A DNA stretch of 64,000 nucleotides from an uncultured Bacilli bacterium. GTDB lineage: Bacteria; Bacillota_I; Bacilli_A; RF39; UBA660. Below the pieces are notes generated by a model. It did no database searches, was not told the origin of the DNA, and saw nothing but the letters and a program-made list of their open reading frames with translations. Where the stretch lies: positions 7,274 to 71,273 of the forward strand of contig CANPWX010000001.1 of the NCBI GenBank assembly GCA_947585065.1, read 5' to 3'. Below are positions 16,863 through 32,834 of the stretch, piece after piece (positions within the stretch are counted from its first letter, which is position 1; every line of letters begins with the position of its first letter). The translations under genes and the position numbers were made by a program.

Positions 16863-16868
16863 TGTTTA

Positions 16869-17372
16869 TTCTCAATTTATTTCATTAGTATCTACTTTTA
16901 CATATTGTGCTAATCCAATACAAATAGCATCTGCTTCATCATCATTAACATCGATATTATATTTTTCTTTAACGAAATCTATATCTGCTTGTTTAAGAGT
17001 CGTTCTCTTTATACCGCGACCATTTTTAATTCCTAATGCAGCGCGTCAAGAGCTAGGATATATATATTCAATATTTATTTGTTGAAAGTTATCATGCATC
17101 ATAAATGCGATCGCAGCCTGAAGCCACATTAACATTTTATGTGTATGAGTATTACCCACTCCATAGCCGCCTTCAGGTCTAACTTCTTCAACTATTACTT
17201 TTGATATTTGGTATTTATCTAAAATATCTTTTATGCCATCACGCATTATATATATTCTTTTAATTACATCTGTTGATGAAGATGTTATACACCCGTGGTC
17301 AATTAATTCTCCATCTTTAAAAAATGCTCATCCACTTGATTTTGTAGATACATCTAAGGATAAAATATTCAT
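16869..17372 (-). CDS. RuvC-family Holliday junction resolvase (2 in-frame TGA)
   Basis: Reverse translation gives MNILSLDVSTKSSGWAFF.. (N-terminal catalytic Asp motif) and ..DEADAICIGLAQYV (C-terminal RuvC-like acidic motif). RBS GGAG lies upstream of the ATG at 17370-17372. Confidence 0.55.
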
Positions 17373-17443
17373 ATTTATCACTCCTTTATCTATATCTACA
17401 TTATATCATAAAATTCTCGTTATGTCAAAAAAAGAAGTGATGA

Positions 17444-18943
17444 TTATTTAACATCATCACTATCTATTATACTTTTTATGTCAGCAGGTTTTTTATTATC
17501 ATTTATTAGTTTATTTGCGGCAAAGCCTGCTATAATGCTCTTTAGGTCTAGTCCTAAACTATCTTCCGCAACTTTTAAAACTTGGTCTATTTTTTGTGTA
17601 TTATTTTCAATTAGTTTAGAAGATTGGTCACCATACATTGTAATCTTATCAATATTTGATAATGGTGAAGAAATCTCTTTAGCTATTGAAGGTAATACAT
17701 TTGTAATCATTTCAACGATAGATGCTTCGCCCATTTTCTTTTGTGCTTCAGCTTTCTTTTCAATACCTTCTGCTTCAGCGATACCCTTCGCGCGAATACC
17801 GGCTGCTTCCGCCTCAAGAATAGCTTTTTTACCTTCAGCTTCTGCCAATAATTTAGCCTTAATACCTTGAGCTTCTAGTTCTGCAGCTTCTTTATTTGCT
17901 TCTGCTATTGCTATATTTGCTTCCGCTTGCTTTTTAGCCTTTTCAGTTTCAGCTTCAGCTGCTTTAATAGCACGAGTTTTATCTACTTCAGCTTGGACTT
18001 CAGCAGCATATTTTTCTGCATCTGCTTGTTTCTTAATTTCAGCGTCTAATTCTTGTTCCTTTAAAGCAACTTCTTTTTGTTTTAAAGCAGTTAATTTTTC
18101 AGTTTTAGCAACTTCTGCTTCAACTTGAGCCTCATTAATTGTCTTTTGTTGAATAGCATTTTGGATACCATAAGCAGCGTCCGCATCTGCGGCTTTTCTA
18201 TCTTGTTCAATTTTATATTCAGCTTTTTTAATTGATAAATCTTTTTGTTGTTCTGCTATTTTTGCATCTGCTTCTGCTCTAGCGCGAGCTCCTTCCTCAT
18301 CAGCGGCCGCTTCCGCAACTTTAATTTCCTTTTCTGCTTGAGCTCTTGCTATTTTAGCTGCTTTTTGGATTTTAACTAAATTATCAATACCTAAATTTTC
18401 AATAGCTTGATTATCATCTGAACAGCTTTGAACATTTAAGTTTACAATTTCAAGACCCATTGCTTTAATATCATCATTTGCATTTTCTTGTATTTTTTGT
18501 GAAAATAATTGTTTATCATTAACTAATGATACTAACATCATTTGACCAATGATTTCACGCATATTACCTTCAAGAACTTGCTGAACATTAGTTGCGATAT
18601 AACTAGCATTTTGGTTTAAGAAATGTCTTGCTGCGACTTGAATTAAATCAGTATCTTGTGGAATTCTGACATTTGCAACTGCATCTACATCGACATTAAT
18701 AAAGTCTTGTGTAGGTACATTATGTGCTTTTACATCAATTTGTATCAATTCAAGAGTAAGTTTATCTACTCTTTCAAAAAATGGTAATCTCAATGTTGCT
18801 TTACCAATTATTATTCTTGGTTTCTTTTTAAGTCCAGAAATTATGTATACCATATTTGGTGGACATTTTACATAGCTTGCCATTATAATAACTCCAATAA
18901 TTAATATGATGGCGCATATTAATCCTATTAAAATTAAATTCAT
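17444..18943 (-). CDS. SPFH/band-7 (flotillin-like) membrane protein
   Basis: N-terminal TM segment, PHB-like core, and a long Ala/Glu/Lys coiled-coil repeat region (AEAEA..KAAEAE) as in flotillins. Confidence 0.55.
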   Translation of the reverse strand: MNLILIGLICAIILIIGVIIMASYVKCPPNMVYIISGLKKKPRIIIGKATLRLPFFERVDKLTLELIQIDVKAHNVPTQDFINVDVDAVANVRIPQDTDLIQVAARHFLNQNASYIATNVQQVLEGNMREIIGQMMLVSLVNDKQLFSQKIQENANDDIKAMGLEIVNLNVQSCSDDNQAIENLGIDNLVKIQKAAKIARAQAEKEIKVAEAAADEEGARARAEADAKIAEQQKDLSIKKAEYKIEQDRKAADADAAYGIQNAIQQKTINEAQVEAEVAKTEKLTALKQKEVALKEQELDAEIKKQADAEKYAAEVQAEVDKTRAIKAAEAETEKAKKQAEANIAIAEANKEAAELEAQGIKAKLLAEAEGKKAILEAEAAGIRAKGIAEAEGIEKKAEAQKKMGEASIVEMITNVLPSIAKEISSPLSNIDKITMYGDQSSKLIENNTQKIDQVLKVAEDSLGLDLKSIIAGFAANKLINDNKKPADIKSIIDSDDVK

Positions 18944-18972
18944 TTCCTTTATCTCCTTTTATCTCCTAAAAA

Positions 18973-19506
18973 TTATCTACCAGTACTTCCAAATCCCCCA
19001 TCACCGCGTTCAGTTTCATCTAAACTATCTTTTTCTTCAAGAGTGATAGGTATATAAGGCATAACAACTAATTGAGCAATGCGGTCGCCGCCTCTTATGC
19101 TTTGAACATCGTTTGTATCATTGTGAAGAGCGACGATTATTTCCCCTCTATAATCTGAGTCTACAACGCCTACACAGTTAGCTGGACGAAGTCCTTGTTT
19201 AGTAGCTAATCCGCTACGGGCGAAGATAGCTCCGAATGTACCTTCAGGTAAAGAAACTGCAATACCAGTATTAATTTTTACTGTATAATGCGCAGGCACA
19301 ATTATTTCTACTTCTGAACTAGGTACATAAAGGTCATAGCCTGCGGCTGCTGCGCTTCCTCTAGTTGGTTCTATTGCATCTTCTCTTGTTTTCATATAAT
19401 CTATTGGCATAGAAAAAAAATTTGCGTTTGAAATCGTCATTGCCCCATCTTCATTTACTAAACTTGAATTATCATTAGTTGTATCAATTATAATATTATT
19501 ATCCAT
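18973..19506 (-). CDS. dut: dUTP diphosphatase
   Basis: dUTPase motifs are present: AAGYDLY, RSGLATK, VGVVDSDYRGEI, and C-terminal GGFGSTG. Confidence 0.8.
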   Translation of the reverse strand: MDNNIIIDTTNDNSSLVNEDGAMTISNANFFSMPIDYMKTREDAIEPTRGSAAAAGYDLYVPSSEVEIIVPAHYTVKINTGIAVSLPEGTFGAIFARSGLATKQGLRPANCVGVVDSDYRGEIIVALHNDTNDVQSIRGGDRIAQLVVMPYIPITLEEKDSLDETERGDGGFGSTGR

Positions 19507-19787
19507 TATTTATTCTCCTATCTATTAAAATGCACTACCATTGTCATATGTTATATCGACATCTCTATCTGGTTCGTGCTCGTCATTAAATTTTTTAACT
19601 AGAGTCACTTTTCACCAGAAGTCAATTACTTCACCCTTTTGTTTTCTTTCTTTATATTCTACTGTTGATTTAGTTAAAGTATATCCAGGTTCTTGTTTAG
19701 CTTTTTCAATAAAAGCAGTAGCTTCATCTTCAGCACTAAATCTATATACTTCAGTAGTTGTTATTAAAAATTTCATATTAATTCTCC

Positions 19788-20054
19788 TTATCCATTAACT
19801 AATTTTATTTCTAATTCATTTTTACCATATTTAGTTATTTCTGCTAATTCAATTTTTTCTTTAATACCTTTTGAAAAATTTTTAGAGCCTATTAATTGAA
19901 CTTCTTTTGCATTATATTTAGTTGCAGTTTCAATAATAGTATTTGGCACATTATCTAATTCAACAGAAACAACATCTATTTTATTACCATCTTCATAAAC
20001 AAATATATTTTGATTTAAAATAAATGGTTTTATAATACTAACTATTTTTTTCAT
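19788..20054 (-). CDS. Hypothetical protein (88 aa)
   Basis: Intact ORF in the operon. RBS GGAGG upstream. Confidence 0.4.
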   Translation of the reverse strand: MKKIVSIIKPFILNQNIFVYEDGNKIDVVSVELDNVPNTIIETATKYNAKEVQLIGSKNFSKGIKEKIELAEITKYGKNELEIKLVNG

Positions 20055-20066
20055 AGTCTCTCCTCC

Positions 20067-20471
20067 TTAAAAATCTGCTATAACTCCAGCGTCATATGGA
20101 AAGAAATAATATACAAAAGCCTCTTCATCTATATTCATCCATATTTCAATAGCGTCTTTATCTTTTGTTAAATCAATAGCGCATATCTTTCCTCTATTAG
20201 TTAAACATTCATCGATTAGACAATCTACGCATCTGATTTGAGTTCCGTTATGTTTGACATTTCCGCCTGCTAAATGAAAATCAAATACTGTATAGTCTTT
20301 TTTTTCATTACATAATAACATATAATAAAAGTTTTTAGTATCTATAATAAAATTTTTAATTATTTCTTTTTTACTATTGATAGTTCCTTCTGATAATGCA
20401 GGTAAATTTTTTACTATATTTTTATTTATATCATAAAGATTACCTATTACTACTTGTTTTTCTTCTTCCAT
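20067..20471 (-). CDS. Hypothetical protein (134 aa)
   Basis: Intact ORF. Confidence 0.4.
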   Translation of the reverse strand: MEEEKQVVIGNLYDINKNIVKNLPALSEGTINSKKEIIKNFIIDTKNFYYMLLCNEKKDYTVFDFHLAGGNVKHNGTQIRCVDCLIDECLTNRGKICAIDLTKDKDAIEIWMNIDEEAFVYYFFPYDAGVIADF

Positions 20472-21378
20472 AATCTAATTCTCCTTTTATTATTAAGTAT
20501 ATCTTTTGTTACATAATTTTTTGAAGTTGCTAAATGATCTGCATCGATGCCTTCATAAATTACATATTCTAAAAATTTTCTTTCATCTTCATTTAATATA
20601 ATATGATTTTTATTATTTTCATAATATTGGTATGGACGGTCATTAAATTTATAACCCATTGCTAGCCAATCTAATACATTTTCTAATACATCAAGGACTT
20701 GTTCATCATCATTTTTATTAAATGTTTTTTTATTTTGTCTATGTTGCCAATGATGTGAATTAACTTGCCAATGATGTTGCCAAGCCTTTTCAAAAGCATT
20801 TTTATTTTCTTCTTTTTCTTGTTGAGATATAGGGAAAAAATTTTTTCTATAAGGCTCAAATTCTTCTATCGAATATTTGCTAGCATCATGACATAATACT
20901 CTATTATGTAATTTATTTAATAAATCTTCTCCACCAATTTGAAAAATTATATGATTATTTTTCATTTCATCGAATGCTTTTAAAATATTATTTTTATGTT
21001 CTTTAATGTATTTTTTATATAATTCTGTATTCTTTTTTATTTTAAAATATTTTTTTATATTTAGTATATTGTATTTTATTTTATTTGGAAAACTTAAAAT
21101 AAAATAGCCTATTGATAAAAATTTATTTTGTTTATTTTCAAAATCTGAATTCATAGTACGTTTTCTAAACAAATGTAATTTATATAAATTATTATGTGCT
21201 ATTCATTCATTTATAAAAAATTTAATATTTCTTTTAGTTTCAAAAGCAGTATTTTTTTCTAATATTTCTTTAATAATAATTTTCATTTTATCAATATTTT
21301 TCATTTGATAACTATTAAAAATAGTTATTATTTTTGAATTGTATTTAATAGTTAAGCCTTTTATTTTTGTTGTTTTCA
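20450..21378 (-). CDS. HD-domain phosphohydrolase-like protein (1 TGA near N-terminus)
   Basis: Strong RBS TAGGAGG then ATG at 21376-21378. The ORF continues through a TGA into track ORF 20450-21172. LHNRVLCHDASKY resembles the HD motif. Confidence 0.45.
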
Positions 21379-21388
21379 TAAAAACCTC

Positions 21389-21853
21389 CTATTCAGTATA
21401 TACTTTGCAACTACCACTAAAATGGTCTATTTCATGTTGTATTATATCACTCATTCTTCCACCTTCGGCTAATTCTTTAATGTTTCCATTTTCATCTGTA
21501 TAAGTACACCAAACTTTTTGATATCTAGTTATTTCTTTATAAACACTTGGTACACTTAAACATCCTTCAATATATTTTTCTTCTCCGCGAGTTCTAGTTA
21601 TTTTTGGATTAATTAAAACATATTCTTCTCCACCCCAAGAGCAAATACAAATTTGTTTTGGTTCTCCTATTTGAATTGCGGAAATGCCTTTCCCATTGTG
21701 GACTGAATGTAATGTATCTTTCATATCCTGAATAAGGTTTTTTATATCATTATTAATTTCAGTTACTTCTTCGCTTGTTTGTTTTAATATTTCTCTATCT
21801 TCTTTATTTCTATAAACTAATATTCTTCTTATCACTTTACCATTTCCTTTCAT
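21389..21853 (-). CDS. def: Peptide deformylase
   Basis: All three PDF motifs are present: GKGISAIQIG (GxGxAAxQ), EGCLSVP, QHEIDHFSG (HExxH). Confidence 0.8.
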   Translation of the reverse strand: MKGNGKVIRRILVYRNKEDREILKQTSEEVTEINNDIKNLIQDMKDTLHSVHNGKGISAIQIGEPKQICICSWGGEEYVLINPKITRTRGEEKYIEGCLSVPSVYKEITRYQKVWCTYTDENGNIKELAEGGRMSDIIQHEIDHFSGSCKVYTE

Positions 21854-21864
21854 TTTATATAAAT

Positions 21865-21893
21865 ATTATATCATTTATTTTTAAAAAAGTCAA
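21865..21893 (-). promoter_or_regulatory. Sigma-A-type promoter (TTGACT-N17-TATAAT) for def
   Basis: Reverse complement reads TTGACTTTTTTAAAAATAAATGATATAAT. Confidence 0.55.
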
Positions 21894-21901
21894 AAAAGAG
21901 G

Positions 21902-22444
21902 TTAAACTTTTTGATACAGTTTAACCTCTTTTGTTTTTAAACTTTTTTGGACATCTATAACTCTTTGATTGCGGGAACCGCGTAGCCAGAGCGTAATGTC
22001 TCGTTCTGATTGAATATATGGCCCATCTATTAAAACATCAATTTTAGATAGTATTGTATGTAAGATAAACTCATCTCTGATTAGATCTTCCCAAACATAG
22101 CCTGTTCACAAGAATATACGCGTGTTTGGGCAATCTTGTTTAATCACATCAAGGATTGCCGCCGTATTCACAACGTTATCATTATCTTTCCATAATGGCT
22201 CGCCACCAAGAATACTTAAATTTCTTTGAATACCATTAGCTGTTAAATCTTTTTTAATAGTATCAATCAATTTACTCGTCCACATTTCATCTCCATAGCT
22301 ACTATCTCAGGCTTCTGGGTTATGACACCCAGGACAATGGAGAGGGCAACCAGATAGGAAGACACTTACACAAGTGCCTTCGCCATTAACTATGTCGTTT
22401 GGATTGATACCAGCAACATGAACCATGCCTGTCATTATTTCCAT
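21902..22444 (-). CDS. nrdG: Anaerobic ribonucleotide reductase activating protein NrdG (radical SAM), 2 in-frame TGA = Trp
   Basis: Reverse translation gives ..GEGTCVSVFLSGCPLHCPGCHNPEA[TGA]DS.. and ..NTRIFL[TGA]TGYVWEDL... These align with E. coli NrdG CPGCYNKSTW and DIWVWTGY, so both TGA sit at conserved Trp positions. Confidence 0.8.
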
Positions 22445-24771
22445 CCTTGTAATTTCTTACTATGTTTATATCTATCTTCAGTTTCCGCCTGTTTTCCTTT
22501 ATTAAACGCTGTCTTATAGTCGCCAGTAAGATAGCCTGTTACGCGACGAAGTTGTTGAATATGTTCACTATCACACATAGGACAATGGTCATTGAATTCA
22601 TCGCAATATCCACATTCAAGACAAGTGTCATTTGGAACATTCAAAGCGAAGTAAGGTATGTCTTTATCTATAGCATAATTAACTATTTGTTCAAGTGCTT
22701 CTAAATTATTTTTAACTCCACCATCTAATTCTACATAAGTAATACAACCAGCAGAACTATATCCAGTTAATTGACTTTCAATATCAATTTTGTCATATGG
22801 ACTCATTTCTTCTCATACTGGAACATGGATACTATTAGTGAAGTATTCTCTATCGCTAATATTTGGTATTTCTCCATATCTCTTTTTGAATTTCTTCATT
22901 GCGGTATAGCAAAGATTTTCAGCTGGGGTATAGTAAACACCAAAATTTAATTTATATTCTTCTTTAAATTCAGCACAACGTTTTTTAAATAATGCTTCAA
23001 TTTTTTTAGCAAGTTCCATACCTTCTTCAGTTGTATGGTCTTTACCAATTAAGATTTGAAGTGTTTCCGCAAGACCAATTTGACCCAAAGCCAAGGTACC
23101 ATGCTTCAATGCACTTCGAATACCTTCTTCAGGAACATAGCCTGCCATTAAACCATTCTCATACATAAACTTTGCAGACTCGGGTGATTGAGAACAGATA
23201 TAATCAAATCTTTCAATTAGCATATCTTTTGCTTCATAAATTTTATCATTTAATAATCTTAAGAATATGTCAATAACTTTGTTAGGATCAAAATTTTGAG
23301 TTCTAATTTCTTCTTTTGCTTCCATAGCAAGAGTAGGCATTATTATAGTAACAGGACATATATTACCTCTACCATCCTTAAGTTGTCCAAATCCGTTTAT
23401 ATCGAAACCATTCGCCGTACGGCACCCCATCGTAGAGAAATAAGTTCTAGGGTCATTTAGATCATAACCTACATTACCGCTCCAGTCTACATTTGCATAA
23501 TTTGGATATAATCTTTGAGCTGTTGATTTAAGTGCTAATTGGAATAAATCGTAGTTAGGATCTCCAGGTTTTCGGTTAACACCTTTCATACATTGAAATA
23601 TACCACATGGGAATATAGGTGTTTTTCTTACTTTGCCTACGCCTTTAATAGAACCTTCAAGCAATGCTTTTGTAACCATTCTGCCTTCAGGAAGCGTGCA
23701 TGTTCCATAATTAATGCTCGTGAATGGAAGTTGATTTCCAGATCTAGATTGAAGTGTATTTAGATTATGATACATACCTTCTACTGCTTGTTTTAATTCA
23801 CGTTCAGTTCTTTGATAAGCATCATCAAAAGCCATAGTATATTTATCTTTTTTATTAAATTCATAATCTAAAATACTAATGTCTTTTACTTTATCTTCAT
23901 AAATAGCTTTACCAAGCTCTGCACGGAACTCTTCTATTTCATCTATTTTTCTTTTGTTTTCATCTGAATAATCATTGTAATTTTTAACTTCTGGTTGGCT
24001 ACCAAAAACAAAAGCAGATTCAATATCTAGTGCTTCTTGTAAATGTTTATAAAAAGATTTACGAACATATGGAACCATAGTTCAATCTAGGTGCGTTGCG
24101 GAAACACCACCAAACTGCTGCAATGACTGAAGTTGAAATATTACTGCAACTAATTGAAATGCAGTATTGATTGATTGAGCTGGACGAACATCTGTTTGTC
24201 TAGTGTTAAAACCTTTTGCTAATAAATCATCAAAAGGTACAGATAAACAGTTATGCATACCAACTGCATAGCTATCAAGGTCGTGAATATAAATTTCATT
24301 ATTTAAATGATTATTTCTAGCCATTGGTGATATTATGTAATTTAATGCATAGTCTTTCATTAACTCGCTACGGGCTTCACCCATACGACCTCCAAATGAA
24401 TGTTCATCAACATTAGCATTTTGATTTTGAACATCAGAAGCATCAAGTTTTTCAGCTATATTTTTAATTAGCTCTGAGTTCTTTTGTCTTATTTTATTTC
24501 TTTCTTCTCTATAAAGGATATATGCTTTTGCGACATCTTTTCTTTTAGTAGACATTAAACCTTTTTCTACTAAATCTTGAATTTCTTCAATTCCAGGTGT
24601 CTCTTCTACTTCTTCATAATATCCTTCAATAAAATCTGCAATATTTTCAGCTTTTATTTCAGCATATTCAGTTATTTCTCCGTCTACGCTTTTAAAAGCT
24701 GCAAGTATTGCTTTTTGAATTTTTGATGGATCAAATTCTACTATTCTTCCATCGCGTTTCTTTACGTTCAT
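22435..24771 (-). CDS. nrdD: Anaerobic ribonucleoside-triphosphate reductase NrdD (about 778 codons; track ORFs 24082-24771, 22813-24078 and 22435-22806 joined by two in-frame TGA)
   Basis: Class III RNR features: N-terminal ATP-cone-like MNVKKRDGRIVEFD, C-terminal zinc ribbon CLECGYC..CPMCDS, and glycyl radical motif RRVTGYL. The junctions are exactly TGA, in frame. Confidence 0.8.
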
Positions 24772-24902
24772 ATTTCAGTCCTCCTTAGTATATATTTAAT
24801 TCAAGGAATTAACCTTACATATAATATGAATTTATATTTTAATAGATTATATTAATTTGACCTGCGGCAACCGAGGTGTGTCGCCCGGTTGACCGGTTAC
24901 CG

Positions 24903-27900
24903 CTAGTCTTCAGTAATACCTTCTCTATCGTGAGTTAAATTAATACTACCATCATAATAAACATCAGTTATCTTGTAAAGTTGGTGGCAGCCACTATTCT
25001 TGTATGTCTTTGTCACAAACGAATCGTCCCTACGATAACCAGCAACTAATAACTTAATGCCTCTTGTGAACCAGCCCTTTTCTACTACGTGTTTCACTCC
25101 ATCTTCGCCAAGCTCACTTAATTGTCTATTATACATTGCATAATATTCTTTTGTAAATTTAACATTTACAACACCTGTTGGAGTTAATAATGTTACAGAT
25201 GAACGATTGTCATTTTTGCCAATAACTGTTCCAATTATCTTATAAATTTTATAAATAGGAATATCATGACCATTCCTTTTGAAGAATGTATCTACAATAG
25301 GTTCAGATGGAAGATTATTAAAATCTACAATACCATATTTATCTACATTAACATTTTTTAATTCATGTTCATGATAATAGAAACATAATGCCTCCATTTC
25401 ATATGAGCTAATATTACCTAATGCATATTTATCCCAACACTCTTTAAATAATAATGTATTAAATTTTTTTAATATTTCTTCTTGATTTTCTTTAATCCAA
25501 TCTCTTGCTCCATCCATTACGTTTTGATAAATTTTTTCCCATATTGTTTGTTGGATACAAGTTAAACCATTAATTACTTCAAGTTTATCCAAATCAAAAT
25601 TCTTATTATAAAATTCTTCACAAGCATTATCAAATACAAAATATTTGCCTACTTTTTTATTTGCTTTTAAGTATTTTGTAAATAAATAAGTTCTTTTTTG
25701 TAAATCTAAACTTGCGGGAACTAAATCATGTTGAATTAAACCATTAAAATTTTGTAGAGTTATTCTTTTTTTTGCTTCACATACTTTAGATACATAATAC
25801 ATCATAACAAATTTTCGAGGTTCAATACCCATCTCAGCGGCGGTTGCCGCATCAGTCTTATCAAATGCTCCACCTTTAATTAAACTAAACATTGCACTTT
25901 TATTTAATGGACATCTATTTATAAAATCTGCTATATTTATATAAGGTCTAAATTTAATTATTTGTTCTATTGTTGAACTATTAACATTACTTAAGGCTTT
26001 CATACCAAATAATATTTCATTATTTTCAACATCTGGTTTAAAACTGTAACTAGATTTATTTATATCTACTAAACTAACTTTAATGCCTCTTGATATAATA
26101 TCTCCAATAGCTTTTGCAATTTTACCATAATCAGTTGCTTTTTCTTTTTTTTCAACAATATTACCTTCATCATCTTCTTCATACATTGAATCATCTTCTT
26201 CAAGACTACCGCTATTAACAACTAAACATGCGGTATTCCAATATATTGGATTCCATCTTGTTGCTATATACATAGTTTGGAAACCTATAAAACTATATGC
26301 CAACGCATGAATGATACTAAATGAATAACCCATTTGAGGTCCAACTCCGCATGTCCAAACGTAATGTCCTAAACAAGATGATTTTGCTTGAGTTAATACT
26401 TTATTTTTTAATTCAGGAATTTTACTCATTTGTTTTTTACCAACTACTTTACGTGCGGCATTTGCTTCCGCAAGAGTAAAACCACAAATGTTTTCATCCA
26501 TTAACATTCTCATAAGTTGCTCTTGACTTGGTGGAACTCCATAAGAACTTTTAAAATATGGTTCTAATGCTAATTGTTCTGTTTGAGTTAATCCATACTC
26601 TCTCATTTCTTTATACCATAAAGATATATCATTTTTAAATCTAATATATTTTTCCATTGGAGCTTCTTGACCTTTTTCCGCAGTCATTAATCTCATTAAA
26701 CCATTAGCATCCGCCATTTCCATCATACTTTGAGGTTTAATTTTCTTTGCAGCTTGTCCTCCAACTTCGCTATCAAATTGGAAGATATTTAATACACTAT
26801 TCTCTTGAAGAACTTTCCAAGTATTTTGGTCTTCAATAGGTAAAACACTTGGATGAAAATATTTATCATATACTTCTCTTAATGTTAAATCGCTATCAAT
26901 TTCTCCATATTCTTGTAATAACCTAATTGCTTCACATAATTTATCTTGGACTTCTGTTACTAGAAAATCATATTTAGTCATTCCGCATGCTTCACACATA
27001 TGCAAATCATATGCAGTTATAATCTCACCTTTTGGTGTTCTCATAAATGTTCCAAATTCATATGGGTCTTCATCAAATAAAATTACACCTGATGCATGAC
27101 TACTTCTTTTATTTACTAATCCTTCAATACCTTCCATAATCTCTAATAAACCTGGATACATATTAACTTCATTAATAAACATTTTAATTGGTTTTCTACC
27201 TTTATCTTCATTACCATTTATAACATCACTTAATGACCATAAGAAACCACGTTCACTAGGAATTAATGAACTTAAATATTGTGCGGTATCTACATCTATT
27301 CCATCCGGGTATTCTTCACTTCTGTACCCGCGGCAAGCTGTTAAAATTGTTGAACGAGTTCCTTCTGTTCCAAATGTTGCAATTAATGTACAACCTAGAT
27401 TTTTACGACTTAAATCATCAATTTCTGCATTAAATTTTTTTCCACGCTCTTCTTTTATTTTCTTTAAGATTAAAGGTCTTTTACTTGGACATAAATCTAA
27501 ATCTATATCTCCTAATTCAACTCTTTCTTTATTCAAATATCTCCAAAATGGAAGATTCCATTTAATTGGATCAAGTTGAGTTATACCTAATAAATAATGA
27601 TTTAATCCTGAACAACTTGAACCACGACCTGCGCCAACCATACTGCCGCATTCCCAAAATAAATCTACATAATGTTGTAAAGTTACTGGATACATAAACA
27701 TATTAGTTCCTAATTTTTCACTAATTGTTTGTTTAATATCAGCTTCTTCTTCAAGTCTACTTAAATATTCATCATTATATTTATCTATTTTAATTAATTT
27801 ACTTACACATTCATTTACCCAATATCTATTTACTTTATCATCTGATATAAACATATCTTTTAATATTGGATATTTATTTATTTCTTCTGGAATAGCTTTT

Positions 27901-28859
27901 ATATAATCTTTAACTTCTACTTTTGGAATAGTTTGATTATGTGCTAAACTAAAATTCTCTATTTTATTATAAATTTCAAAACTATTACCAAACATTTCAT
28001 TTATAAATTCTTCACTAAAATCTGATGCTTTTAAATTTTCTATTATTTCTTCATTACTTTGAAGATAAGCATATTCATAAAAACTATCTACTTCACGTTC
28101 TCCAAATTTACTATTTAAATATGCTTTATGAACGTATCTATCTTCTTTTTTAAGATAATGTGCATCACTACCAATTACCATTTTTAAATCAAATGCTTTT
28201 GCAATAGAAGGAAATCTTTTATTAACTGCAATTTGTTCTGCACTACAACCTGGCGCACATTCTATATAAAAATTATCTTCGCCAAACACTTCTTTACACC
28301 ATAACAAAAAATTTACTATATTATTATGTGCAGTCTCCGCACCATATACATCATTTATTTTTTCTGCATTTATTAAATTTAAAGTATTAACACTTAATTC
28401 TCCACCTAAACAAGCAGTTGTTGCTATTAAAGTATTTGGATATTTTTTCATTATTTCTTCAATATCACTTTTTAAAGTTGGAACTCTTTCTAATCCTCTG
28501 TCCCAATAACTATTCATCCATGCTCTTGATGATAACTCTCTTAATGCTCTATATCCTTCTTTATTTTTTGCAATTAAAATAAAGTGATAATATCTTTGTC
28601 CCATATCACGTGTATCTGTTAAATAAATTTCATTACCTAATGCGACTTTAAAGTCAGGATGTTCTTTATGAATTTCGTCTGCATAAAAATTAACTTCTGG
28701 TGCTGCTGAAAGACACTCATGGTCTGTGATTGCAATACCAGCTAAACCTAATTCAATTGCTCTATTAATTAAATTTTTTGGACGATTGATTGAGTCTAAA
28801 AGTCTCAAATTACTATACATAGTGTGTGAGTGCGGCTCAAAACGTGGATTCATAAACAT
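24903..28859 (-). CDS. dnaE: DNA polymerase III alpha subunit (DnaE-type, N-terminal PHP domain), 1318 aa, no TGA
   Basis: PHP motif HSHTMYS..DH at the N-terminus. Size and overall architecture fit DnaE. All roughly 20 Trp codons are TGG. Confidence 0.8.
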   Translation of the reverse strand: MFMNPRFEPHSHTMYSNLRLLDSINRPKNLINRAIELGLAGIAITDHECLSAAPEVNFYADEIHKEHPDFKVALGNEIYLTDTRDMGQRYYHFILIAKNKEGYRALRELSSRAWMNSYWDRGLERVPTLKSDIEEIMKKYPNTLIATTACLGGELSVNTLNLINAEKINDVYGAETAHNNIVNFLLWCKEVFGEDNFYIECAPGCSAEQIAVNKRFPSIAKAFDLKMVIGSDAHYLKKEDRYVHKAYLNSKFGEREVDSFYEYAYLQSNEEIIENLKASDFSEEFINEMFGNSFEIYNKIENFSLAHNQTIPKVEVKDYIKAIPEEINKYPILKDMFISDDKVNRYWVNECVSKLIKIDKYNDEYLSRLEEEADIKQTISEKLGTNMFMYPVTLQHYVDLFWECGSMVGAGRGSSCSGLNHYLLGITQLDPIKWNLPFWRYLNKERVELGDIDLDLCPSKRPLILKKIKEERGKKFNAEIDDLSRKNLGCTLIATFGTEGTRSTILTACRGYRSEEYPDGIDVDTAQYLSSLIPSERGFLWSLSDVINGNEDKGRKPIKMFINEVNMYPGLLEIMEGIEGLVNKRSSHASGVILFDEDPYEFGTFMRTPKGEIITAYDLHMCEACGMTKYDFLVTEVQDKLCEAIRLLQEYGEIDSDLTLREVYDKYFHPSVLPIEDQNTWKVLQENSVLNIFQFDSEVGGQAAKKIKPQSMMEMADANGLMRLMTAEKGQEAPMEKYIRFKNDISLWYKEMREYGLTQTEQLALEPYFKSSYGVPPSQEQLMRMLMDENICGFTLAEANAARKVVGKKQMSKIPELKNKVLTQAKSSCLGHYVWTCGVGPQMGYSFSIIHALAYSFIGFQTMYIATRWNPIYWNTACLVVNSGSLEEDDSMYEEDDEGNIVEKKEKATDYGKIAKAIGDIISRGIKVSLVDINKSSYSFKPDVENNEILFGMKALSNVNSSTIEQIIKFRPYINIADFINRCPLNKSAMFSLIKGGAFDKTDAATAAEMGIEPRKFVMMYYVSKVCEAKKRITLQNFNGLIQHDLVPASLDLQKRTYLFTKYLKANKKVGKYFVFDNACEEFYNKNFDLDKLEVINGLTCIQQTIWEKIYQNVMDGARDWIKENQEEILKKFNTLLFKECWDKYALGNISSYEMEALCFYYHEHELKNVNVDKYGIVDFNNLPSEPIVDTFFKRNGHDIPIYKIYKIIGTVIGKNDNRSSVTLLTPTGVVNVKFTKEYYAMYNRQLSELGEDGVKHVVEKGWFTRGIKLLVAGYRRDDSFVTKTYKNSGCHQLYKITDVYYDGSINLTHDREGITED

Positions 28860-28881
28860 CTTCCTTTCTTATCTTATATAT

Positions 28882-28910
28882 ATTATATCAAAAATTAAAA
28901 TAAAAATCAA
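28882..28910 (-). promoter_or_regulatory. Sigma-A-type promoter (TTGATT-N17-TATAAT on - strand) for the Pol III alpha gene
   Basis: Reverse complement reads TTGATTTTTATTTTAATTTTTGATATAAT. Confidence 0.55.
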
Positions 28911-29548
28911 ATGGATTACACACTTGCGCGTCTAATCCAATGAATCTTTGTATCCGTAAAAGTATTCTGTTTATCTCAATAAAACCATGCATAGGCTTGA
29001 GCTGATGCTTCAGTATCTGACGTATCTCCATTTTTATAACATTTAATTCTATCTACATAAACTCAAACATGAGAAGGGGGATTATTTTTAAATATATTTT
29101 CATATCTGTTTTTACCTTCTAAAAATTGTAATCTACCTAACATTAATATACCTTTATCCGCAATTTCTAATGCTCTAATTACAAAAGGTTCAATTGTAGA
29201 ATAAGGCGGGTTCATTATAATATAATCAATATTTTCATTTATGGGATAATTATCTGATAAAAAATCATATCCTTCTCCAGTATAATGTTCAAAATTATAA
29301 TCTTCAGTCGCTCGTTCGCGAATATCTGTAGCTATAAGATTAGATTTTGAGTAGTATTTTTTTATAGCTTTTACCATAGCTCCATCTCCGCAACAGGGTT
29401 CTAATATAGTTCCATCAAAGAAAAAAGGTATTAAACTAAGTATATTTTCAACTTCTTCTGTCGGAGTTGAATAATAATCTAACGCATCGCGTTCTTTATG
29501 TTTTTTATCGTAACTATTATATAGTCCTTGTTTATTATAACTTTTCAT
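28895..29548 (-). CDS. DNA N6-adenine methyltransferase-like protein (3 in-frame TGA in C-terminal extension)
   Basis: Motif IV IIMNPPYS and motif I-like LEPCCGDG. The ORF reads through TGA at 29063, 28976 and 28907 to TAA at 28895. Confidence 0.5.
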
Positions 29549-30051
29549 TAAAAATTAAACTCCTTATCTTTTATTATTAATTTTTGAATTGGATATTCTA
29601 GTTCATTACACTCAATACCATGTGCTTTAAAATATTCTTGTAGCGGTTTCCGCTCACTACATGGATTATTTGGTGTTTCATAAACTATTAACACTATTGT
29701 TATTTCTTCTTTTATATTTTCTTTCTCTTGATATAATTTTGCTAATTCTTCAAAATCTTTATATAATATATTAAAATCTATATTTTCTAAATTTTTTCTA
29801 TAATTATTTAAAAAAGAACAAGTAGTATAATCTTTTCCTTCGCATGGACATACTTCAGGCCCATGATTAGATTGTCTACCTTGTTCTATTATACTTTCAC
29901 ATCTTAAACCATTTAATATGCCTCGTTTATCATAGAACAAATGATTATAATCTCTAGTGAAGTTGTGAAATCACATTGGGTCTCAGATAGCAGTAGAAAC
30001 AGGTATGAAATTTTTTGGGAAATTTCTTATTTGATAAAAATAACTAGTTGC
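29548..30051 (-). CDS. Hypothetical Cys-containing protein (N-terminal extension through 2 TGA; start uncertain)
   Basis: Track ORF 29548-29940 continues upstream in frame through TGA codons. Start candidates are TTG or ATG. An RBS-associated ATG lies in another frame. Confidence 0.3.
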
Positions 30052-30127
30052 TATTTTCAAAAAACATCCACCTTTCTATGATAAGGATAGCTAGCAAAGC
30101 TAGCATCTATAGGCGGCAACCGCGCTA

Positions 30128-30415
30128 TTATGCCACTTTATCGGCACCTTCCGCCTTCTCATACCGGTTTCCGCGATAAATTTTCTTTCTATTAAAATAT
30201 CTAATTGCATTGCCTAATATTATTTCATCTAATTGCTCTTGAGTTTTTTCTTTACCTTTAACTCTCCATCTAAAAGCAAATTTTGTAGGTCGACTGCCTG
30301 GATATAAATCTATAATTTTCCAAACTCCTAATTTAGTTCTGTCTTTTGGTGTATCCATATACCACACGGCATATCTATTGTTTACTACTTTTTGTATATT
30401 ATATTTTTTATTCAT
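30128..30415 (-). CDS. Hypothetical basic protein (95 aa)
   Basis: Intact ORF. The 3' end contains a GC-rich GCGGAAACC motif. Confidence 0.4.
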   Translation of the reverse strand: MNKKYNIQKVVNNRYAVWYMDTPKDRTKLGVWKIIDLYPGSRPTKFAFRWRVKGKEKTQEQLDEIILGNAIRYFNRKKIYRGNRYEKAEGADKVA

Positions 30416-30430
30416 TCTTTCTTTCTCCTC

Positions 30431-31216
30431 CTAATCTTCTATAACGCCATAATATTCTTTCTCATTATCTGGCGTTAAAAGATAACGAGTGGTTTCTAAT
30501 TTTAAATCATTTAAGTTATATTCTTTATTATAAGGAATTCTTATTAAAGGAATATTATGCTCAAAACAATATTTATTTTTTTCTAAATCATTTTTATGTA
30601 CTGTTTCAAAATCTTGATGGAAATGACCTTTTTCAAAATGTTGTACTCCATCATATTCAATAATATAAATTAATGTATCATTATTGAATACTGCTACATC
30701 ATAATATAATTTATCACAAACTCTATTAGAATATAAATCACTAAAACTATATTGCTGTTTAAATGTAATATTCATTTCTTCTAACATTTGTGCAATTTTA
30801 CTTTCATTCATACTATTGATACATCCACAACTTTTAGTATCTCCATTTTCTAAATAATCGCCTCTTACACAAACATTTTGTCTACCACATTTTAAACAAT
30901 CACAAATTCAATATGTTCCTCCATATTTTTTATTAGGAGCTTCTTCTTTTGTTGCAATACGTTTTACTAATAAATAACCATATTGTTTGCCTATCCTATC
31001 TTTAATATTTGCTTGTCTCATCTTTTCTATTTTATTGCATCCGCAACAAGTTGAACGACCGGACCTTAAATGTCCTCCAGCAACTACTTTAATAGTTTTA
31101 TTGCATAAAGTACATTTACATAATCATTGAGCTTTTCCACCTTTATCATTTTCAGCTCTTTCTAATACATGTCAATAACCAAAATCTTGACCTGTTAAAT
31201 CAATTAATTTGCTCAT
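30431..31216 (-). CDS. Zn-ribbon-rich protein with C-terminal PD-(D/E)xK-like nuclease-like domain (4 TGA)
   Basis: RBS AAAAGGAGAG then ATG at 31214-31216. Repeated CxxC pairs. C-terminus IYIIEYDGVQH..K.. is like small Vsr/DUF559-type endonuclease folds. It joins track ORF 30431-30811 through TGA codons. Confidence 0.35.
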
Positions 31217-31285
31217 AAATATCTCTCCTTTTCACTTGTATTTAAAACTTGTGGTAAGTAATTTTAATACTTATGACCAGTGTTA

Positions 31286-32479
31286 TTAATTATTTTTTAT
31301 TATAACAAGTCGTTTTATAGCTCTAGTAGCACATGTATATAAAAATTTTCGATGTTCTTCTGGATTATATGGGAAGCTCTCTTCAATTACTAAAACATTA
31401 TCCCATTCACTTCCTTGCGCTTTCCAGCCTGTAATAGCGTAACCATAAGTGAATTGATCTGGAACAGAATTCTTATAATTAATGGTTCTATTCATATTAT
31501 AAGAAGTTTTCCAATCTAATCCAGGTTCACCAGTTAGTATTAATTTTTTATCCATAGTTATTTCTCCATAATTTGCATTAGCATCTGATATAAATTCTGA
31601 TATAATTAAATCTAACTTTTTAGGTTTTTTATCACTACTTAATTTAGCAGGTATTTGAAGATAAGTATTAAATGGATTTTTTAAATAACCAATAGTTCCA
31701 TTAACTAATGGATCGCCATCATCTGAGTATATATCCCAATTATTTTTTAAACATATAACTTTGTCTCCATCTTGCGGGTCTCCTTCTCTACCTAATAAAT
31801 CTCGCATTTGATTATTTAAAGCTATTCTAGTTGCATTAGTAGCACAAATAATTTGGTCAGCCCACATTAACATCCCAGTTGTAAGTTCACTTTTATTTAA
31901 TATTTGAACTTCTTTACCTTTATATTCAGTAAGCGGAAACCCCGCTCGAATATCCATAGTTAATTTAATAATCTCACTATCTTCTTCTTGACGCATAATT
32001 TCATCTAAAAATATATGTGGATTATCTAATAAATGATTATCTTCATCTTTACGAATAGGTGGCAATTGACCTGGGTCTCCTAAACACAAAACATATACAG
32101 GATATTTTGCTAATTGTTGAAATAATTCTTTTGGAACCATGGAACATTCATCAACAACCACAACTTTATAAGGAATACAATCAACTGGTTTACGCCAAAA
32201 AGTTCCATCAGCTCGTGGAATACTCTCATATAGTAATTTATGTAATGTACTTACATTTTTATTACCTTTCTTTTGTAATACTTGAGTTGCTTTACCTGTA
32301 AATGATGTATACACAACATCTTTTTCTGGATTAATATCAGATAAGGCGGCAATTATAAATTTAACTAGCGTGCTTTTACCAGTTCCTGCGAAACCTGATA
32401 TTACTGTATATCGTTGTCTATCTTTATATCTAGAAACTGCAATTTCTAAACCTTGTTTTTGTTTATCAGTTAATTCCAT
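31286..32479 (-). CDS. SF1 DNA helicase (Dda/RecD-like)
   Basis: Walker A GFAGTGKST, Walker B VVVDECSMV, GDPGQLPP motif. Confidence 0.65.
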   Translation of the reverse strand: MELTDKQKQGLEIAVSRYKDRQRYTVISGFAGTGKSTLVKFIIAALSDINPEKDVVYTSFTGKATQVLQKKGNKNVSTLHKLLYESIPRADGTFWRKPVDCIPYKVVVVDECSMVPKELFQQLAKYPVYVLCLGDPGQLPPIRKDEDNHLLDNPHIFLDEIMRQEEDSEIIKLTMDIRAGFPLTEYKGKEVQILNKSELTTGMLMWADQIICATNATRIALNNQMRDLLGREGDPQDGDKVICLKNNWDIYSDDGDPLVNGTIGYLKNPFNTYLQIPAKLSSDKKPKKLDLIISEFISDANANYGEITMDKKLILTGEPGLDWKTSYNMNRTINYKNSVPDQFTYGYAITGWKAQGSEWDNVLVIEESFPYNPEEHRKFLYTCATRAIKRLVIIKNN

Positions 32480-32537
32480 ATTTTGCCACCTTTCTTTATT
32501 ATATATTTATTATATCATTATTTTTATTTAAAATCAA

Positions 32538-32810: not shown

Positions 32811-32834
32811 AAGAGCTTCATTAAAATCTTTACC

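What the first reader, a model, noticed from the sequence alone, without database searches (positions are those of the whole stretch)
24858..24902. Over-represented GC-rich 9-mer family GCGG(C/A)AACC / GGTT(G/T)CCGC scattered through a 28%-GC genome
About 18 occurrences on both strands, for example 24862 GCGGCAACC, 24876 CCGGTTGACCGGTTACCGC, 54600 GCGGAAACCGGTATGA plus 54641 CCGGTTGACCGGTTGCCGC, 30113 GCGGCAACCGCG plus 30166 CCGGTTTCCGCG (the repeated 16-mer GCGGAAACCGGTATGA seen at 54600), and others at 21969, 29648, 31930, 34197, 38446, 50173, 61005, 12250, 54783. Many sit inside GCGG-N3-CCGC interrupted palindromes, also seen as GCGGCTGCCGC Ala-codon runs. Chance expectation for any fixed GC 8-mer at this base composition is far below one per 64 kb. 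Sites occur both upstream of genes (nrdD, 54070 gene, 61041 gene) and inside coding sequence with GC-rich Ala/Thr/Gly codons, so selection acts on the DNA. Candidate roles: a methyltransferase or modification target, Chi-like recombination hotspots (several embed GAAGCGG or AGCGG), a regulator operator, or packaging/replication signals.
Basis: seen in the sequence. Interest (0 to 1): 0.7.

Follow-up and report, generated by a model that had tools for sequence, protein, structure and literature searches.

The report
Selected GCGG words and dyads
A family of large, AT-rich, uncultivated gut/rumen phages keeps the four-letter DNA word GCGG, and the 11-letter mirror site GCGG-NNN-CCGC, far more often than chance by choosing rare codons, which points to an unidentified factor that reads this word all along the genome.

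Summary
GCGGNAACC occurs 15 times against 0.17 expected, and GCGG-N3-CCGC 14 times against about 0. The 9-mers are a sub-pattern of two larger signals.

1. GCGG/CCGC is the most over-represented tetramer: 237 copies against about 57 expected. It is enriched on both strands, in all reading frames and in non-coding DNA. Synonymous-codon shuffles give z = 9–17.
2. The head-to-head dyad GCGG-N3-CCGC (core CGG-N3-CCG, 21 copies against 0.5 expected) is selected as a unit. 48% of permissive tetrapeptides carry it. The rarest codons, CGG and CCG, are recruited to build it. The opposite polarity is absent, and no other tetramer behaves this way.

Three private GC-rich hairpins (24864–24903, 30113–30175, 54602–54660) are built from dyad-like arms.

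Both signals hold across about 55 uncultivated relatives that resemble the 'Agate' clade and use recoded stop codons. They are absent from four other low-GC phages.

A Bacillus/Staphylococcus-type Chi is rejected: there is no 5' extension, no strand skew and no clustering. A phage methyltransferase is not supported.

The most likely explanation (about 35%) is recognition sites for an unknown dimeric sequence-specific DNA factor. The rivals are biased repair drive, mini-hairpins, an unknown-host Chi and primase sites. The function remains unknown.

The parts
1..64000 (.). Genome-wide excess of the tetramer GCGG/CCGC: 119 + 118 copies, about one per 270 bp
   Evidence: Top-ranked tetramer, 4.4x and 3.9x over the order-1 expectation. 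Synonymous shuffle z = 9.4 and 16.8. All six strand/frame contexts are enriched, and intergenic DNA has 8 vs 1.4. Uniform over gene classes at 2.3–2.4x. Spacing is about Poisson.
24864..24903 (-). E1: a 40-nt GC-rich imperfect hairpin in the Pol III-alpha/nrdD spacer (the finding's own coordinates). It is built from two inverted dyad-like 11-mers (GCGGCAACCGA, CCGGTTACCGC) plus an inner CCGGTTGACCGG.
   Evidence: Sequence. Folds at -20.3 kcal/mol with z = -2.8 on the mRNA-sense strand. No U-tract and no terminator call. Absent at this position in the closest relatives L001 and L006.
30113..30175 (+). E2: a 63-nt hairpin element that starts with the perfect dyad GCGGCAACCGC and ends with CCGGTTTCCGCG. 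Its minus-strand reading supplies the last 15 codons and the stop codon of ORF 30415..30128.
   Evidence: Shares GCGGAAACCGGTATGA with E3. Dyads recur at this gene junction in independent lineages.
54602..54660 (-). E3: a 59-nt hairpin element with arms GCGGAAACCGG / CCGGTTGCCGC. It lies in frame inside ORF 54735..54070 when TGA is read as Trp.
   Evidence: An 11-bp outer stem with one non-Watson-Crick position.
5596..5606 (.). Perfect dyad GCGGCTGCCGC (encodes Ala-Ala-Ala-Ala)
6576..6586 (.). Perfect dyad GCGGATGCCGC
6783..6793 (.). Perfect dyad GCGGATTCCGC
14317..14327 (.). Near-dyad CCGGCTGCCGC
19081..19091 (.). Perfect dyad GCGGTCGCCGC (in the dUTPase gene)
21971..21981 (.). Perfect dyad GCGGGAACCGC (in nrdG)
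25840..25850 (.). Perfect dyad GCGGTTGCCGC (in the Pol III-alpha gene)
29643..29653 (.). Perfect dyad GCGGTTTCCGC. On the sense strand it reads G|CGG|AAA|CCG|C, using the rare codons CGG and CCG.
34192..34202 (.). Perfect dyad GCGGCAACCGC (in the RecJ-like gene)
38444..38454 (.). Perfect dyad GCGGCAACCGC (in the AAA_24/Sak4-like gene)
46615..46625 (.). Perfect dyad GCGGCTGCCGC (in gyrA)
47883..47893 (.). Perfect dyad GCGGCTGCCGC (in gyrB)
50173..50183 (.). Near-dyad ACGGAAACCGC
61004..61014 (.). Perfect dyad GCGGTTTCCGC, about 26 nt upstream of the ribosome-binding site of the gene that starts at 61041
61633..61643 (.). Perfect dyad GCGGCTGCCGC

Best explanation
GCGG is the half-site, and GCGG-N3-CCGC (core CGG-N3-CCG) the full head-to-head site, of a sequence-specific factor that reads duplex DNA as a dimer. 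The factor is most likely encoded by this phage clade and has not been identified.

Selection keeps the genome saturated with half-sites, about one per 270 bp, and installs the full dyad wherever the protein sequence makes that cheap. It does this by choosing otherwise rare codons at codon junctions (GCG|G, xGC|GG, xCC|GC, even CGG and CCG). The three long hairpins are local clusters of two or three such sites.

Because sites are uniform, strand-symmetric and mostly intragenic, the function is probably genome-wide (marking, protecting, organising or processing the phage chromosome) and not regulation of particular genes.

Shown: the statistics, the selection at synonymous sites, the dyad geometry, and the restriction to this clade.
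For: DNA-level signal:
- GCGG/CCGC is enriched in all six strand/frame contexts (z = 4–12) and in intergenic DNA. Control junctions (ACG|G, TCG|G, CCG|G) are not favoured.
- Non-coding DNA family-wide has 199 vs 62.

Dyad selected as a unit, with fixed geometry:
- In A-[GADEV]-[ATSP]-A tetrapeptides the two junction choices rise to 67% and 62%. 42 of 87 sites are full dyads. Other spacings and polarities give 7–39%.
- R-x-P sites use CGG and CCG together in 10 of 39 cases, vs 0.07 expected.
- N3 has 91 vs 3.3 expected, and the reverse polarity has 0 vs 3.3. GCGG is unique among the 256 tetramers; pooled N3 dyads sit at 1.04x.
- Core CGG-N3-CCG: 21 vs 0.5 in the window and 134 vs 8.2 in relatives.
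- Stems do not extend beyond 4 bp more often than in the control polarity. That favours recognition over hairpin stability.

Constraint:
- Motif junctions are lost about twice as slowly as other rare G/C-ending synonymous sites.
- Dyads recur at one intergenic junction in independent lineages, with different spacers.

Clade-intrinsic:
- Rank-1 tetramer in 53 of 58 related loci, although GATC avoidance varies from 0.00 to 0.93.
- 3.9x over 938 kb.
- Absent from phi3Ts, VRE9_3 and c-st. Phage K's excess is accounted for by Chi heptamers.
Against: - No candidate protein was identified. No gene in the ±10 kb neighbourhood tracks dyad abundance.
- 85% of tetramers are isolated half-sites.
- Once dipeptide type is controlled, positional conservation is only modestly above expectation, 0.398 vs 0.320. 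Spacing is Poisson. Both features fit a position-blind drive equally well.
- The tetramer excess is constant across the clade while the dyad excess falls from 39x to 6x, so the two signals may have different causes.
- The host genome could not be examined.
Confidence: 0.35

Rival explanations
1. Molecular drive. A context-specific mismatch-repair or gene-conversion bias, analogous to very-short-patch repair linked to a cytosine methyltransferase, converts near-matches into GCGG/CCGC. It acts most strongly on the full dyad, so the words accumulate without serving the phage.
For: - The behaviour is rule-like and position-blind. Occupancy is set mostly by dipeptide type: Ala-Ala 64%, Cys-Arg 50%, Cys-Gly 41%.
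- Spacing is Poisson.
- The excess is strand-symmetric and uniform.
- Motif sites are lost more slowly.
- The commonest decayed dyad variant is the inner C-to-T change: GCGG...TCGC 26 plus its complement 15.
- That very-short-patch repair skews oligonucleotide abundance in E. coli is my recollection and was not checked here.
Against: - No C5-methyltransferase was found in the window or in 1.3 Mb of relatives. No Vsr-like family turned up in the Pfam scans of most window proteins, though no dedicated Vsr search was run. The window's only methyltransferase is in 1 of 23 relatives.
- The presumed donor words are not clearly depleted: GCAG 1.29, GTGG 1.18, GCGA 0.83, ACGG 0.76.
- The signature is constant across relatives whose restriction-avoidance patterns differ, which argues against dependence on a particular host enzyme.
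Confidence: 0.2
2. Mini-hairpins. GCGG-N3-CCGC forms a 4-bp GC stem with a triloop in mRNA, or in single-stranded DNA during replication. It would act as a processing, stability or pause element. Isolated GCGG and CCGC words would provide longer-range pairing in otherwise weakly structured AU-rich transcripts.
For: - The spacing optimum is at the minimal loop: N3 > N4 > N6.
- G·U-type dyad variants are twice as common as A·C-type variants on the sense strand, 61 vs 30.
- The words are depleted in the first 60 nt of genes, where structure harms initiation: 1.2 vs 3.8 per kb.
- GCGG...CCGC hairpins abut the ribosome-binding site in L020 and L024.
- E1–E3 fold stably.
Against: - The reverse polarity CCGC-N3-GCGG contains the same base-pair stacks but is absent, in non-coding DNA as well.
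- There is no extra complementarity beyond 4 bp.
- 85% of tetramers have no partner at hairpin distance.
- The antisense excess equals the sense excess.
- The G·U asymmetry is confounded by C-to-T strand bias.
- Other complementary GC-rich tetramers are not comparably enriched, and some are depleted.
Confidence: 0.15
3. A Chi-like signal for the helicase-nuclease (AddAB/RecBCD type) of an unidentified host. Frequent GCGG words would attenuate degradation of phage DNA ends and promote recombination-dependent replication.
For: - GCGG is the shared 3' core of the B. subtilis (AGCGG) and S. aureus (GAAGCGG) Chi sequences (paper 10.1101/2021.07.08.451572).
- Staphylococcus phage K shows that a low-GC phage can accumulate host Chi: 20 heptamers in 50 kb.
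- The phage carries RecJ-like and Sak4-like recombination genes.
Against: - AGCGG and GAAGCGG are not enriched, and A is disfavoured at -1.
- There is no 5' extension: 0.26 bits here vs 2.14 bits in phage K.
- The excess is strand-symmetric, whereas about 90% of S. aureus Chi sites are co-oriented with replication.
- Sites are spread uniformly and are not clustered at the genome end as in phage K.
- The N3 dyad has no role in Chi biology.
- The signature is constant across relatives that probably infect different strains.
Confidence: 0.1
4. Initiation sites for the phage primase. A primase that needs a GC-rich tetranucleotide would find too few sites in a 28%-GC genome, so selection raises their density on both strands.
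For: - Sites are needed on both strands at high density, which fits the symmetric excess of about one per 540 nt per strand.
- The phage encodes its own DnaB-type helicase and Toprim primase-like protein.
Against: - Homologous helicase and primase genes occur in phi3Ts, VRE9_3 and c-st, which lack the signature.
- Spacing is not more even than random.
- The dyad and its polarity are unexplained.
- There is no direct evidence.
Confidence: 0.05

Closest known systems
Chi sites of Firmicute AddAB (B. subtilis AGCGG, S. aureus GAAGCGG)
   Same: A short GC-rich word with the same GCGG core that is over-represented in an AT-rich genome. Phages can accumulate it, as in the phage K terminal repeat.
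   Different: There is no defined 5' extension, A is disfavoured at -1, there is no replication or strand skew, there is no clustering at genome ends, and there is a strongly selected N3 dyad.
DNA uptake sequences (USS of Pasteurellaceae, DUS of Neisseria); named from memory and not tested here
   Same: A genome-wide excess on both strands. The word sits inside genes through tolerated codon choices, with roughly random spacing. It sometimes occurs as inverted pairs. A drive-like origin is plausible.
   Different: Those motifs are 9–12 nt long and belong to competent bacteria. Here the unit is 4 nt plus an 11-bp dyad in a phage clade. No longer consensus exists: 5–7-mer extensions add less than 1.3x.
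Oligonucleotide skews caused by very-short-patch repair at Dcm sites in E. coli; named from memory
   Same: A palindromic full site plus partial sites, both enriched, in a position-blind and strand-symmetric way.
   Different: No cognate methyltransferase or Vsr was found, donor words are not depleted, and the effect is much larger at 3.9x and 27x.
Interrupted-palindrome sites of homodimeric DNA-binding proteins and type II enzymes (4-N3-4 sites such as DraIII or AlwNI; Gal4-type CGG-Nx-CCG sites); named from memory
   Same: Head-to-head half-sites at a fixed odd spacing. The spacer is unconstrained and the polarity is strict.
   Different: Restriction sites are normally avoided in phage genomes, not enriched. 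No protein with this specificity is known to me in bacteria or phages.
GC-rich palindromic repeat elements in AT-rich or compact genomes (REP/BIME, Rickettsia palindromic elements, yeast mitochondrial GC clusters), as a comparison for hairpins E1–E3 only
   Same: Several copies of an imperfect GC-rich palindrome. They show insertion polymorphism against close relatives, and two copies overlap ORFs in frame.
   Different: There are only three copies and they are private to this genome. No associated transposase was seen in the window. The arms are built from the same dyad that is enriched genome-wide.

Membership tests
Chi (AddAB/RecBCD recognition sequence) | A defined 5–8 nt sequence; for Firmicutes, AGCGG or GAAGCGG | tested here: not met
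   On the leading strand, AGCGG is 25 vs 22.4 and GAAGCGG is 4 vs 3.6. AGCGG is the least enriched NGCGG, at 1.9x vs 4.8–5.8x. Upstream information is 0.26 bits, against 2.14 bits in phage K.
Chi (AddAB/RecBCD recognition sequence) | Orientation skew co-directional with replication | tested here: not met
   The excess over the synonymous shuffle is +57 on the leading (sense) strand and +63 on the lagging (antisense) strand. Replichores were inferred from GC skew.
Chi (AddAB/RecBCD recognition sequence) | Attenuates the host helicase-nuclease | not testable with these tools
   The host is unidentified. This needs biochemistry.
Restriction-modification / methyltransferase target | A cognate methyltransferase conserved wherever the motif signature occurs | tested here: not met
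   The window's only methyltransferase (28916–29548) is in 1 of 23 full-flank relatives. No C5-methyltransferase was found in the window or in 1.3 Mb of relatives. Only ±10 kb around the polymerase gene was sampled in relatives.
Restriction-modification / methyltransferase target | Base modification at the motif | not testable with these tools
   Needs long-read kinetic or signal data.
DNA uptake sequence (USS/DUS type) | A conserved motif of 9 nt or more | tested here: not met
   Extending the word to 5–7 nt adds less than 1.3x over maximal-order expectation.
DNA uptake sequence (USS/DUS type) | Equal on both strands, inside genes, spread genome-wide | tested here: met
Intrinsic terminator (for E1–E3) | A GC-rich hairpin followed by a U-tract | tested here: not met
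   No terminator-like site at any of the three elements. The sequences show no T-run.
Repetitive palindromic element (REP/RPE/GC-cluster type, for E1–E3) | Multiple related imperfect palindromes with presence/absence polymorphism | tested here: met
   Three copies share the arms GCGGMAACCGG / CCGGTTKCCGC. E1 is absent at the orthologous spot in L001 and L006.
Repetitive palindromic element (REP/RPE/GC-cluster type, for E1–E3) | A dispersed family across related genomes, or an associated transposase | tested here: not met
   The exact arm is absent from IMG/VR. The loose pattern found only chance hits in high-GC phages and one ordinary terminator. No transposase family turned up in the Pfam scans of window proteins; the structural genes at 5–13717 and ten smaller ORFs (13951–20054) were not scanned.
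Known RNA families (Rfam) | A match to a curated covariance model at the motif sites | tested here: not met
   Only tRNAs and a tmRNA reach the gathering score, all at 59.6–63.2 kb.

The most novel reading that the evidence does not exclude
GCGG and its N3 dyad form a lineage-specific 'genome word' of an abundant gut/rumen phage clade. A phage-encoded reader would use it all along the chromosome, for example to tell phage DNA from host DNA, to protect or organise it, or to seed replication or recombination. That would be a phage counterpart of Chi, KOPS or uptake sequences, with a new recognition geometry: a 4-bp half-site and a head-to-head N3 full site.
Probability: 0.3. Interest if true: 0.75.

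Novelty: new variant of a known kind. Interest (0 to 1): 0.6.

Why it matters
Genome-wide over-represented words such as Chi, KOPS and uptake sequences have each led to a specific DNA-processing machine. Very few such words are known in phages.

Here a whole clade of abundant, uncultivated, stop-codon-recoded phages pays a measurable coding cost to keep a 4-bp word and an 11-bp dyad. For example, it uses Arg CGG at 33% of permissive R-x-P sites against about 2% overall. That is a strong and directly testable pointer to an unknown sequence reader or repair bias.

Practically, the signature (rank-1 GCGG together with CGG-N3-CCG dyads) could serve as a compositional marker for the clade. It would also confound k-mer-based host prediction and binning.

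Tried and rejected
- Codon usage or protein composition as the cause. Rejected by within-gene synonymous shuffles under codes 11 and 4 and by control junctions.
- General GC clustering or compositional heterogeneity. Rejected: GGGG, GGGC, GGCC and CCGG are depleted.
- A general palindrome-generating process such as template switching. Rejected: all tetramer N3 dyads pooled sit at 1.04x.
- Dyads as a by-product of two independent junction choices. Rejected for N3. Accepted for N0 (GCGGCCGC): the Ala-Ala-Ala class shows no cooperativity.
- Known RNA families or tRNA-like elements at the sites. None found.
- Intrinsic terminators or promoters at E1–E3. None found.
- E1–E3 as a widespread mobile family. 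Not found elsewhere.
- Testing whether E3 is an in-frame insertion. No homologue of its ORF was retrievable.
- G·U tolerance as an RNA-versus-DNA discriminator. It gave an asymmetry, but one confounded by strand-biased C-to-T change.
- Even spacing as evidence of a coverage function. Not seen.
- Host identification. The single genome scan returned only a MAG-binned relative and an irrelevant Helicobacter hit. Deformylase homologues are all on phage-sized contigs. Host genomes therefore could not be tested.
- Candidate factors. The neighbouring methyltransferase and the zinc-finger nuclease are accessory genes. Two clade-conserved unknown proteins have no informative family or structure match. 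No neighbourhood gene tracks dyad abundance.

Full report
WHAT IS THERE

The window has 28.2% GC. GCGGNAACC occurs 15 times on both strands, against 0.17 expected from dinucleotide-preserving shuffles. GCGG-N3-CCGC occurs 14 times, against 0.00 expected.

Rfam and ARAGORN find only a tRNA cluster and a tmRNA at 59.6–63.2 kb, and nothing at the motif sites.

CONTEXT

The window encodes a large-phage replication module:
- DnaE-type Pol III alpha, GyrA and GyrB, NAD-dependent ligase, DnaB helicase and a Toprim primase-like protein.
- An SF1 helicase, a RecJ-like exonuclease, a Sak4-like AAA_24 protein and RNase H.
- NrdD and NrdG, peptide deformylase, ClpP and an RNA ligase.

NrdD is interrupted by two in-frame TGA codons at conserved Trp positions. 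Reading TGA as sense raises long-ORF coverage from 74% to 89%, so the genome uses genetic code 4. All later coding analyses use code 4.

GenBank phages hold no close relative. The nearest cultured phages are SPbeta-like Bacillus phages and Enterococcus phages, at about 40% polymerase identity. IMG/VR holds 79 related loci at 59–85% polymerase identity, on contigs of up to 145 kb.

The size, the mix of recoded stop codons, the cattle and gut sources and the GC-skew pattern resemble the 'Agate' clade of Borges et al. (bioRxiv 10.1101/2021.08.26.457843). I did not test membership of that clade by phylogeny.

THE 9-MER IS NOT THE UNIT

GCGG/CCGC is the single most over-represented tetramer, with 119 + 118 copies against 27 + 30 expected. 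Extending the word to 5–7 nt adds less than 1.3-fold.

The 9-mers are mostly read-outs of the dyad core CGG-N3-CCG with an NAA or TTN spacer. That core occurs 21 times in the window against 0.5 expected. The 21 sites include 12 of the 15 GCGGNAACC copies; the exceptions are 12249, 31933 and 54788.

Six of the 9-mers are the arms of three GC-rich imperfect hairpins:
- E1, 24864–24903.
- E2, 30113–30175.
- E3, 54602–54660.

Each arm (GCGG-NAA-CCGG or CCGG-TTN-CCGC) is itself dyad-like.

SELECTION ACTS ON THE NUCLEIC ACID

Protein sequence and per-gene codon usage were held fixed in a synonymous shuffle:

| Word | Observed | Shuffle mean | z |
|---|---|---|---|
| GCGG | 134 | 73.7 | 9.4 |
| CCGC | 90 | 23.9 | 16.8 |
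| GCGG-N3-CCGC | 13 | 0.2 | 27 |

- All six strand/frame contexts are enriched (z = 4–12). Control junctions such as ACG|G, TCG|G and CCG|G are not.
- Intergenic DNA is also enriched: 8 vs 1.4 in the window and 199 vs 62 in about 78 kb of non-coding DNA across the family.
- The excess is the same in structural, replication and right-arm genes, at 2.3–2.4x. It is flat along genes except for depletion in the first 60 nt.

THE DYAD IS SELECTED AS A UNIT WITH STRICT GEOMETRY

- Across 938 kb of non-redundant relatives, GCGG-Nx-CCGC peaks at N3, with 91 copies against 3.3 expected. CCGC-N3-GCGG has 0.
- GCGG is unique in this respect among all 256 tetramers. Pooled over all tetramers, N3 dyads sit at 1.04x.
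- In tetrapeptides that permit GCG|Gxx|xCC|GCx, the two junction choices are made 67% and 62% of the time. 42 of 87 sites are full dyads. The same choices run at 7–39% in other spacings and polarities.
- In the third reading frame the dyad needs Arg CGG (2.3% of Arg codons) and Pro CCG (7.8% of Pro codons). At R-x-P sites both are used in 10 of 39 cases, against 0.07 expected. Some of these sites share ancestry.
- The N0 form GCGGCCGC (47 vs 3.3) shows no cooperativity in Ala-Ala-Ala contexts and is probably a by-product.
- Stems do not extend beyond 4 bp more often than in the control polarity.

A CLADE-WIDE, CLADE-SPECIFIC PROPERTY

- GCGG/CCGC ranks first in 53 of 58 related loci, at 2.5–5.8x. 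GATC avoidance in the same loci varies from 0.00 to 0.93.
- Pooled over the family, the count is 3470 against 893 expected.
- The tetramer excess is constant across subclades, at 4.3x, 3.6x and 3.8x. The perfect-dyad excess falls with distance from the window, from 39x to 28x to 6x.

Comparison phages:

| Phage | GCGG/CCGC ratio | Rank |
|---|---|---|
| Bacillus phage phi3Ts | 1.05 | 48 |
| Enterococcus phage VRE9_3 | 0.99 | 63 |
| Clostridium phage c-st (SPbeta-like, 25.8% GC) | 0.42 | 131 of 136 |
| Staphylococcus phage K | 2.10 | 1 |
| L081, a more distant MAG-binned relative | 1.54 | 3 |

HOW SITES EVOLVE

In a codon alignment of 41 non-redundant polymerase genes, motif junctions are retained far better than other rare G/C-ending synonymous sites. 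Retention is 80% vs 55% in close pairs and 43% vs 9% at synonymous saturation.

Most of this reflects a position-blind rule set by the dipeptide. Motif-forming codon pairs are used at 64% of Ala-Ala, 50% of Cys-Arg, 41% of Cys-Gly and 33% of Ala-Gly sites. After that control, retention is 0.398 against 0.320 expected.

Some positions are nevertheless strongly conserved. One intergenic junction carries a dyad in independent lineages with different spacers. Spacing along the genome is about Poisson.

TESTING THE PROPOSED ROLES

Chi:
- The literature confirms AGCGG for B. subtilis and GAAGCGG for S. aureus, with about 90% of S. aureus sites co-oriented with replication (10.1101/2021.07.08.451572).
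- Here neither word is enriched on the leading strand, A is disfavoured at -1, and the excess is strand-symmetric.
- Phage K serves as a positive control. Its GCGG excess is accounted for by 20 GAAGCGG heptamers, all within the 8.5-kb terminal repeat. That pattern is unlike this family.

Methyltransferase target:
- The adjacent small NPPY methyltransferase is an accessory gene, present in 1 of 23 relatives.
- No C5-methyltransferase was found in the sampled DNA.

Operator:
- This is implausible for 237 mostly intragenic half-sites.

Hairpins:
- E1–E3 fold at -18 to -23 kcal/mol, with z between -0.6 and -2.8.
- They lack U-tracts and have no terminator or promoter prediction.
- They are private to this genome.
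- E1 is missing from the closest relatives. E2 and E3 overlap ORFs in frame.

INTERPRETATION

The strict polarity and spacing, the unconstrained spacer, the lack of stem extension, the strand symmetry, the presence in coding and non-coding DNA and the restriction to this clade best fit recognition by a dimeric, sequence-specific DNA factor. GCGG would be the half-site. No such factor was found. I put this reading at about 35%.

The rivals are:
- A position-blind repair or conversion drive, about 20%. It fits the rule-like occupancy, but it lacks an enzyme and lacks depleted donor words.
- RNA or single-stranded-DNA mini-hairpins, about 15%. They fit the N3 optimum and the depletion at gene 5' ends, but not the polarity or the isolated half-sites.
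- Chi of an unknown host, about 10%.
- Primase sites, about 5%.

The host could not be identified, so a host-imposed cause is not excluded.

NOVELTY

Full-text searches found no description of GCGG or dyad enrichment in phages. I class this as a new variant of a known kind: a genome-wide selected oligonucleotide word with a new geometry, in a phage clade, whose reader is unknown.

Noticed in passing
window 22435-24771 (-), TGA codons at 24084 and 22815: NrdD carries two in-frame TGA codons at conserved Trp positions. Reading TGA as sense raises long-ORF coverage from 74% to 89%, so the genome uses genetic code 4. Several relatives appear to recode TAG instead.
   Followed up: partly
window 59647-63174: A cluster of 8 tRNA genes plus a phage-encoded tmRNA (62600-63018, Rfam 56.4 bits). 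ARAGORN's 'tRNA-Cys(aca)' at 62388-62465 has an odd anticodon arm. No obvious TGA-suppressor tRNA lies in the window.
   Followed up: no
whole window and loci L001-L079: GATC is strongly avoided in the window (36 vs 113 in the synonymous shuffle). Avoidance ranges from 0.00 to 0.93 among relatives. GGCC, CCGG, TCGA and CTAG are also low family-wide. This is the lineage-specific pattern expected from restriction avoidance.
   Followed up: partly
window about 17 kb and about 55.5 kb: Cumulative GC skew peaks near 16–17 kb and bottoms near 55 kb, at the two switches of gene orientation. This suggests a terminus and an origin of bidirectional replication. E3 lies within 1 kb of the putative origin.
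   Followed up: partly
window, scattered (e.g. 10289, 14410, 23665; 403, 8236, 20172): Two other words are over-represented on both strands and also across the family: TGCTTTTGT (11 vs 1.3 in the window, 4.3x in the family) and ATCAATAG (26 vs 5.8, 2.4x). They are unexplained.
   Followed up: partly
L171 (Staphylococcus phage K, KF766114) 1-8486: Within the first 50 kb examined, all 20 copies of the S. aureus Chi heptamer GAAGCGG lie inside the 8.5-kb terminal repeat, in both orientations. Outside them, GCGG is at expectation.
   Followed up: partly
window 30431-31216, 41199-42131, 59812-60558: Three free-standing homing-endonuclease-like genes: one zinc-ribbon/DUF2726 type and two GIY-YIG type. 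The first sits next to hairpin E2 and is present in only 4 of 23 relatives.
   Followed up: no
window 28916-29548 (-): A small NPPY methyltransferase (PHROG 799, E = 3e-56) with weak similarity to the release-factor glutamine methyltransferase PrmC. That is curious in a stop-codon-recoded phage. It is present in only 1 of 23 relatives.
   Followed up: partly
window 24864-24903, 30113-30175, 54602-54660: In all three hairpins, position 5 of the outer stem is never a Watson-Crick pair (T·G, C/T, C/T). The imperfection itself is therefore conserved.
   Followed up: no
L003, L004, L058, L065: In one subclade GCGC and CGCG outrank GCGG as the top tetramers, and GATC is almost absent (0.00–0.09). 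This is a second, lineage-specific compositional signature.
   Followed up: no
window 17444-18943 (-): A phage-encoded SPFH/flotillin-like protein of 499 aa, found in only 3 of 23 relatives.
   Followed up: no
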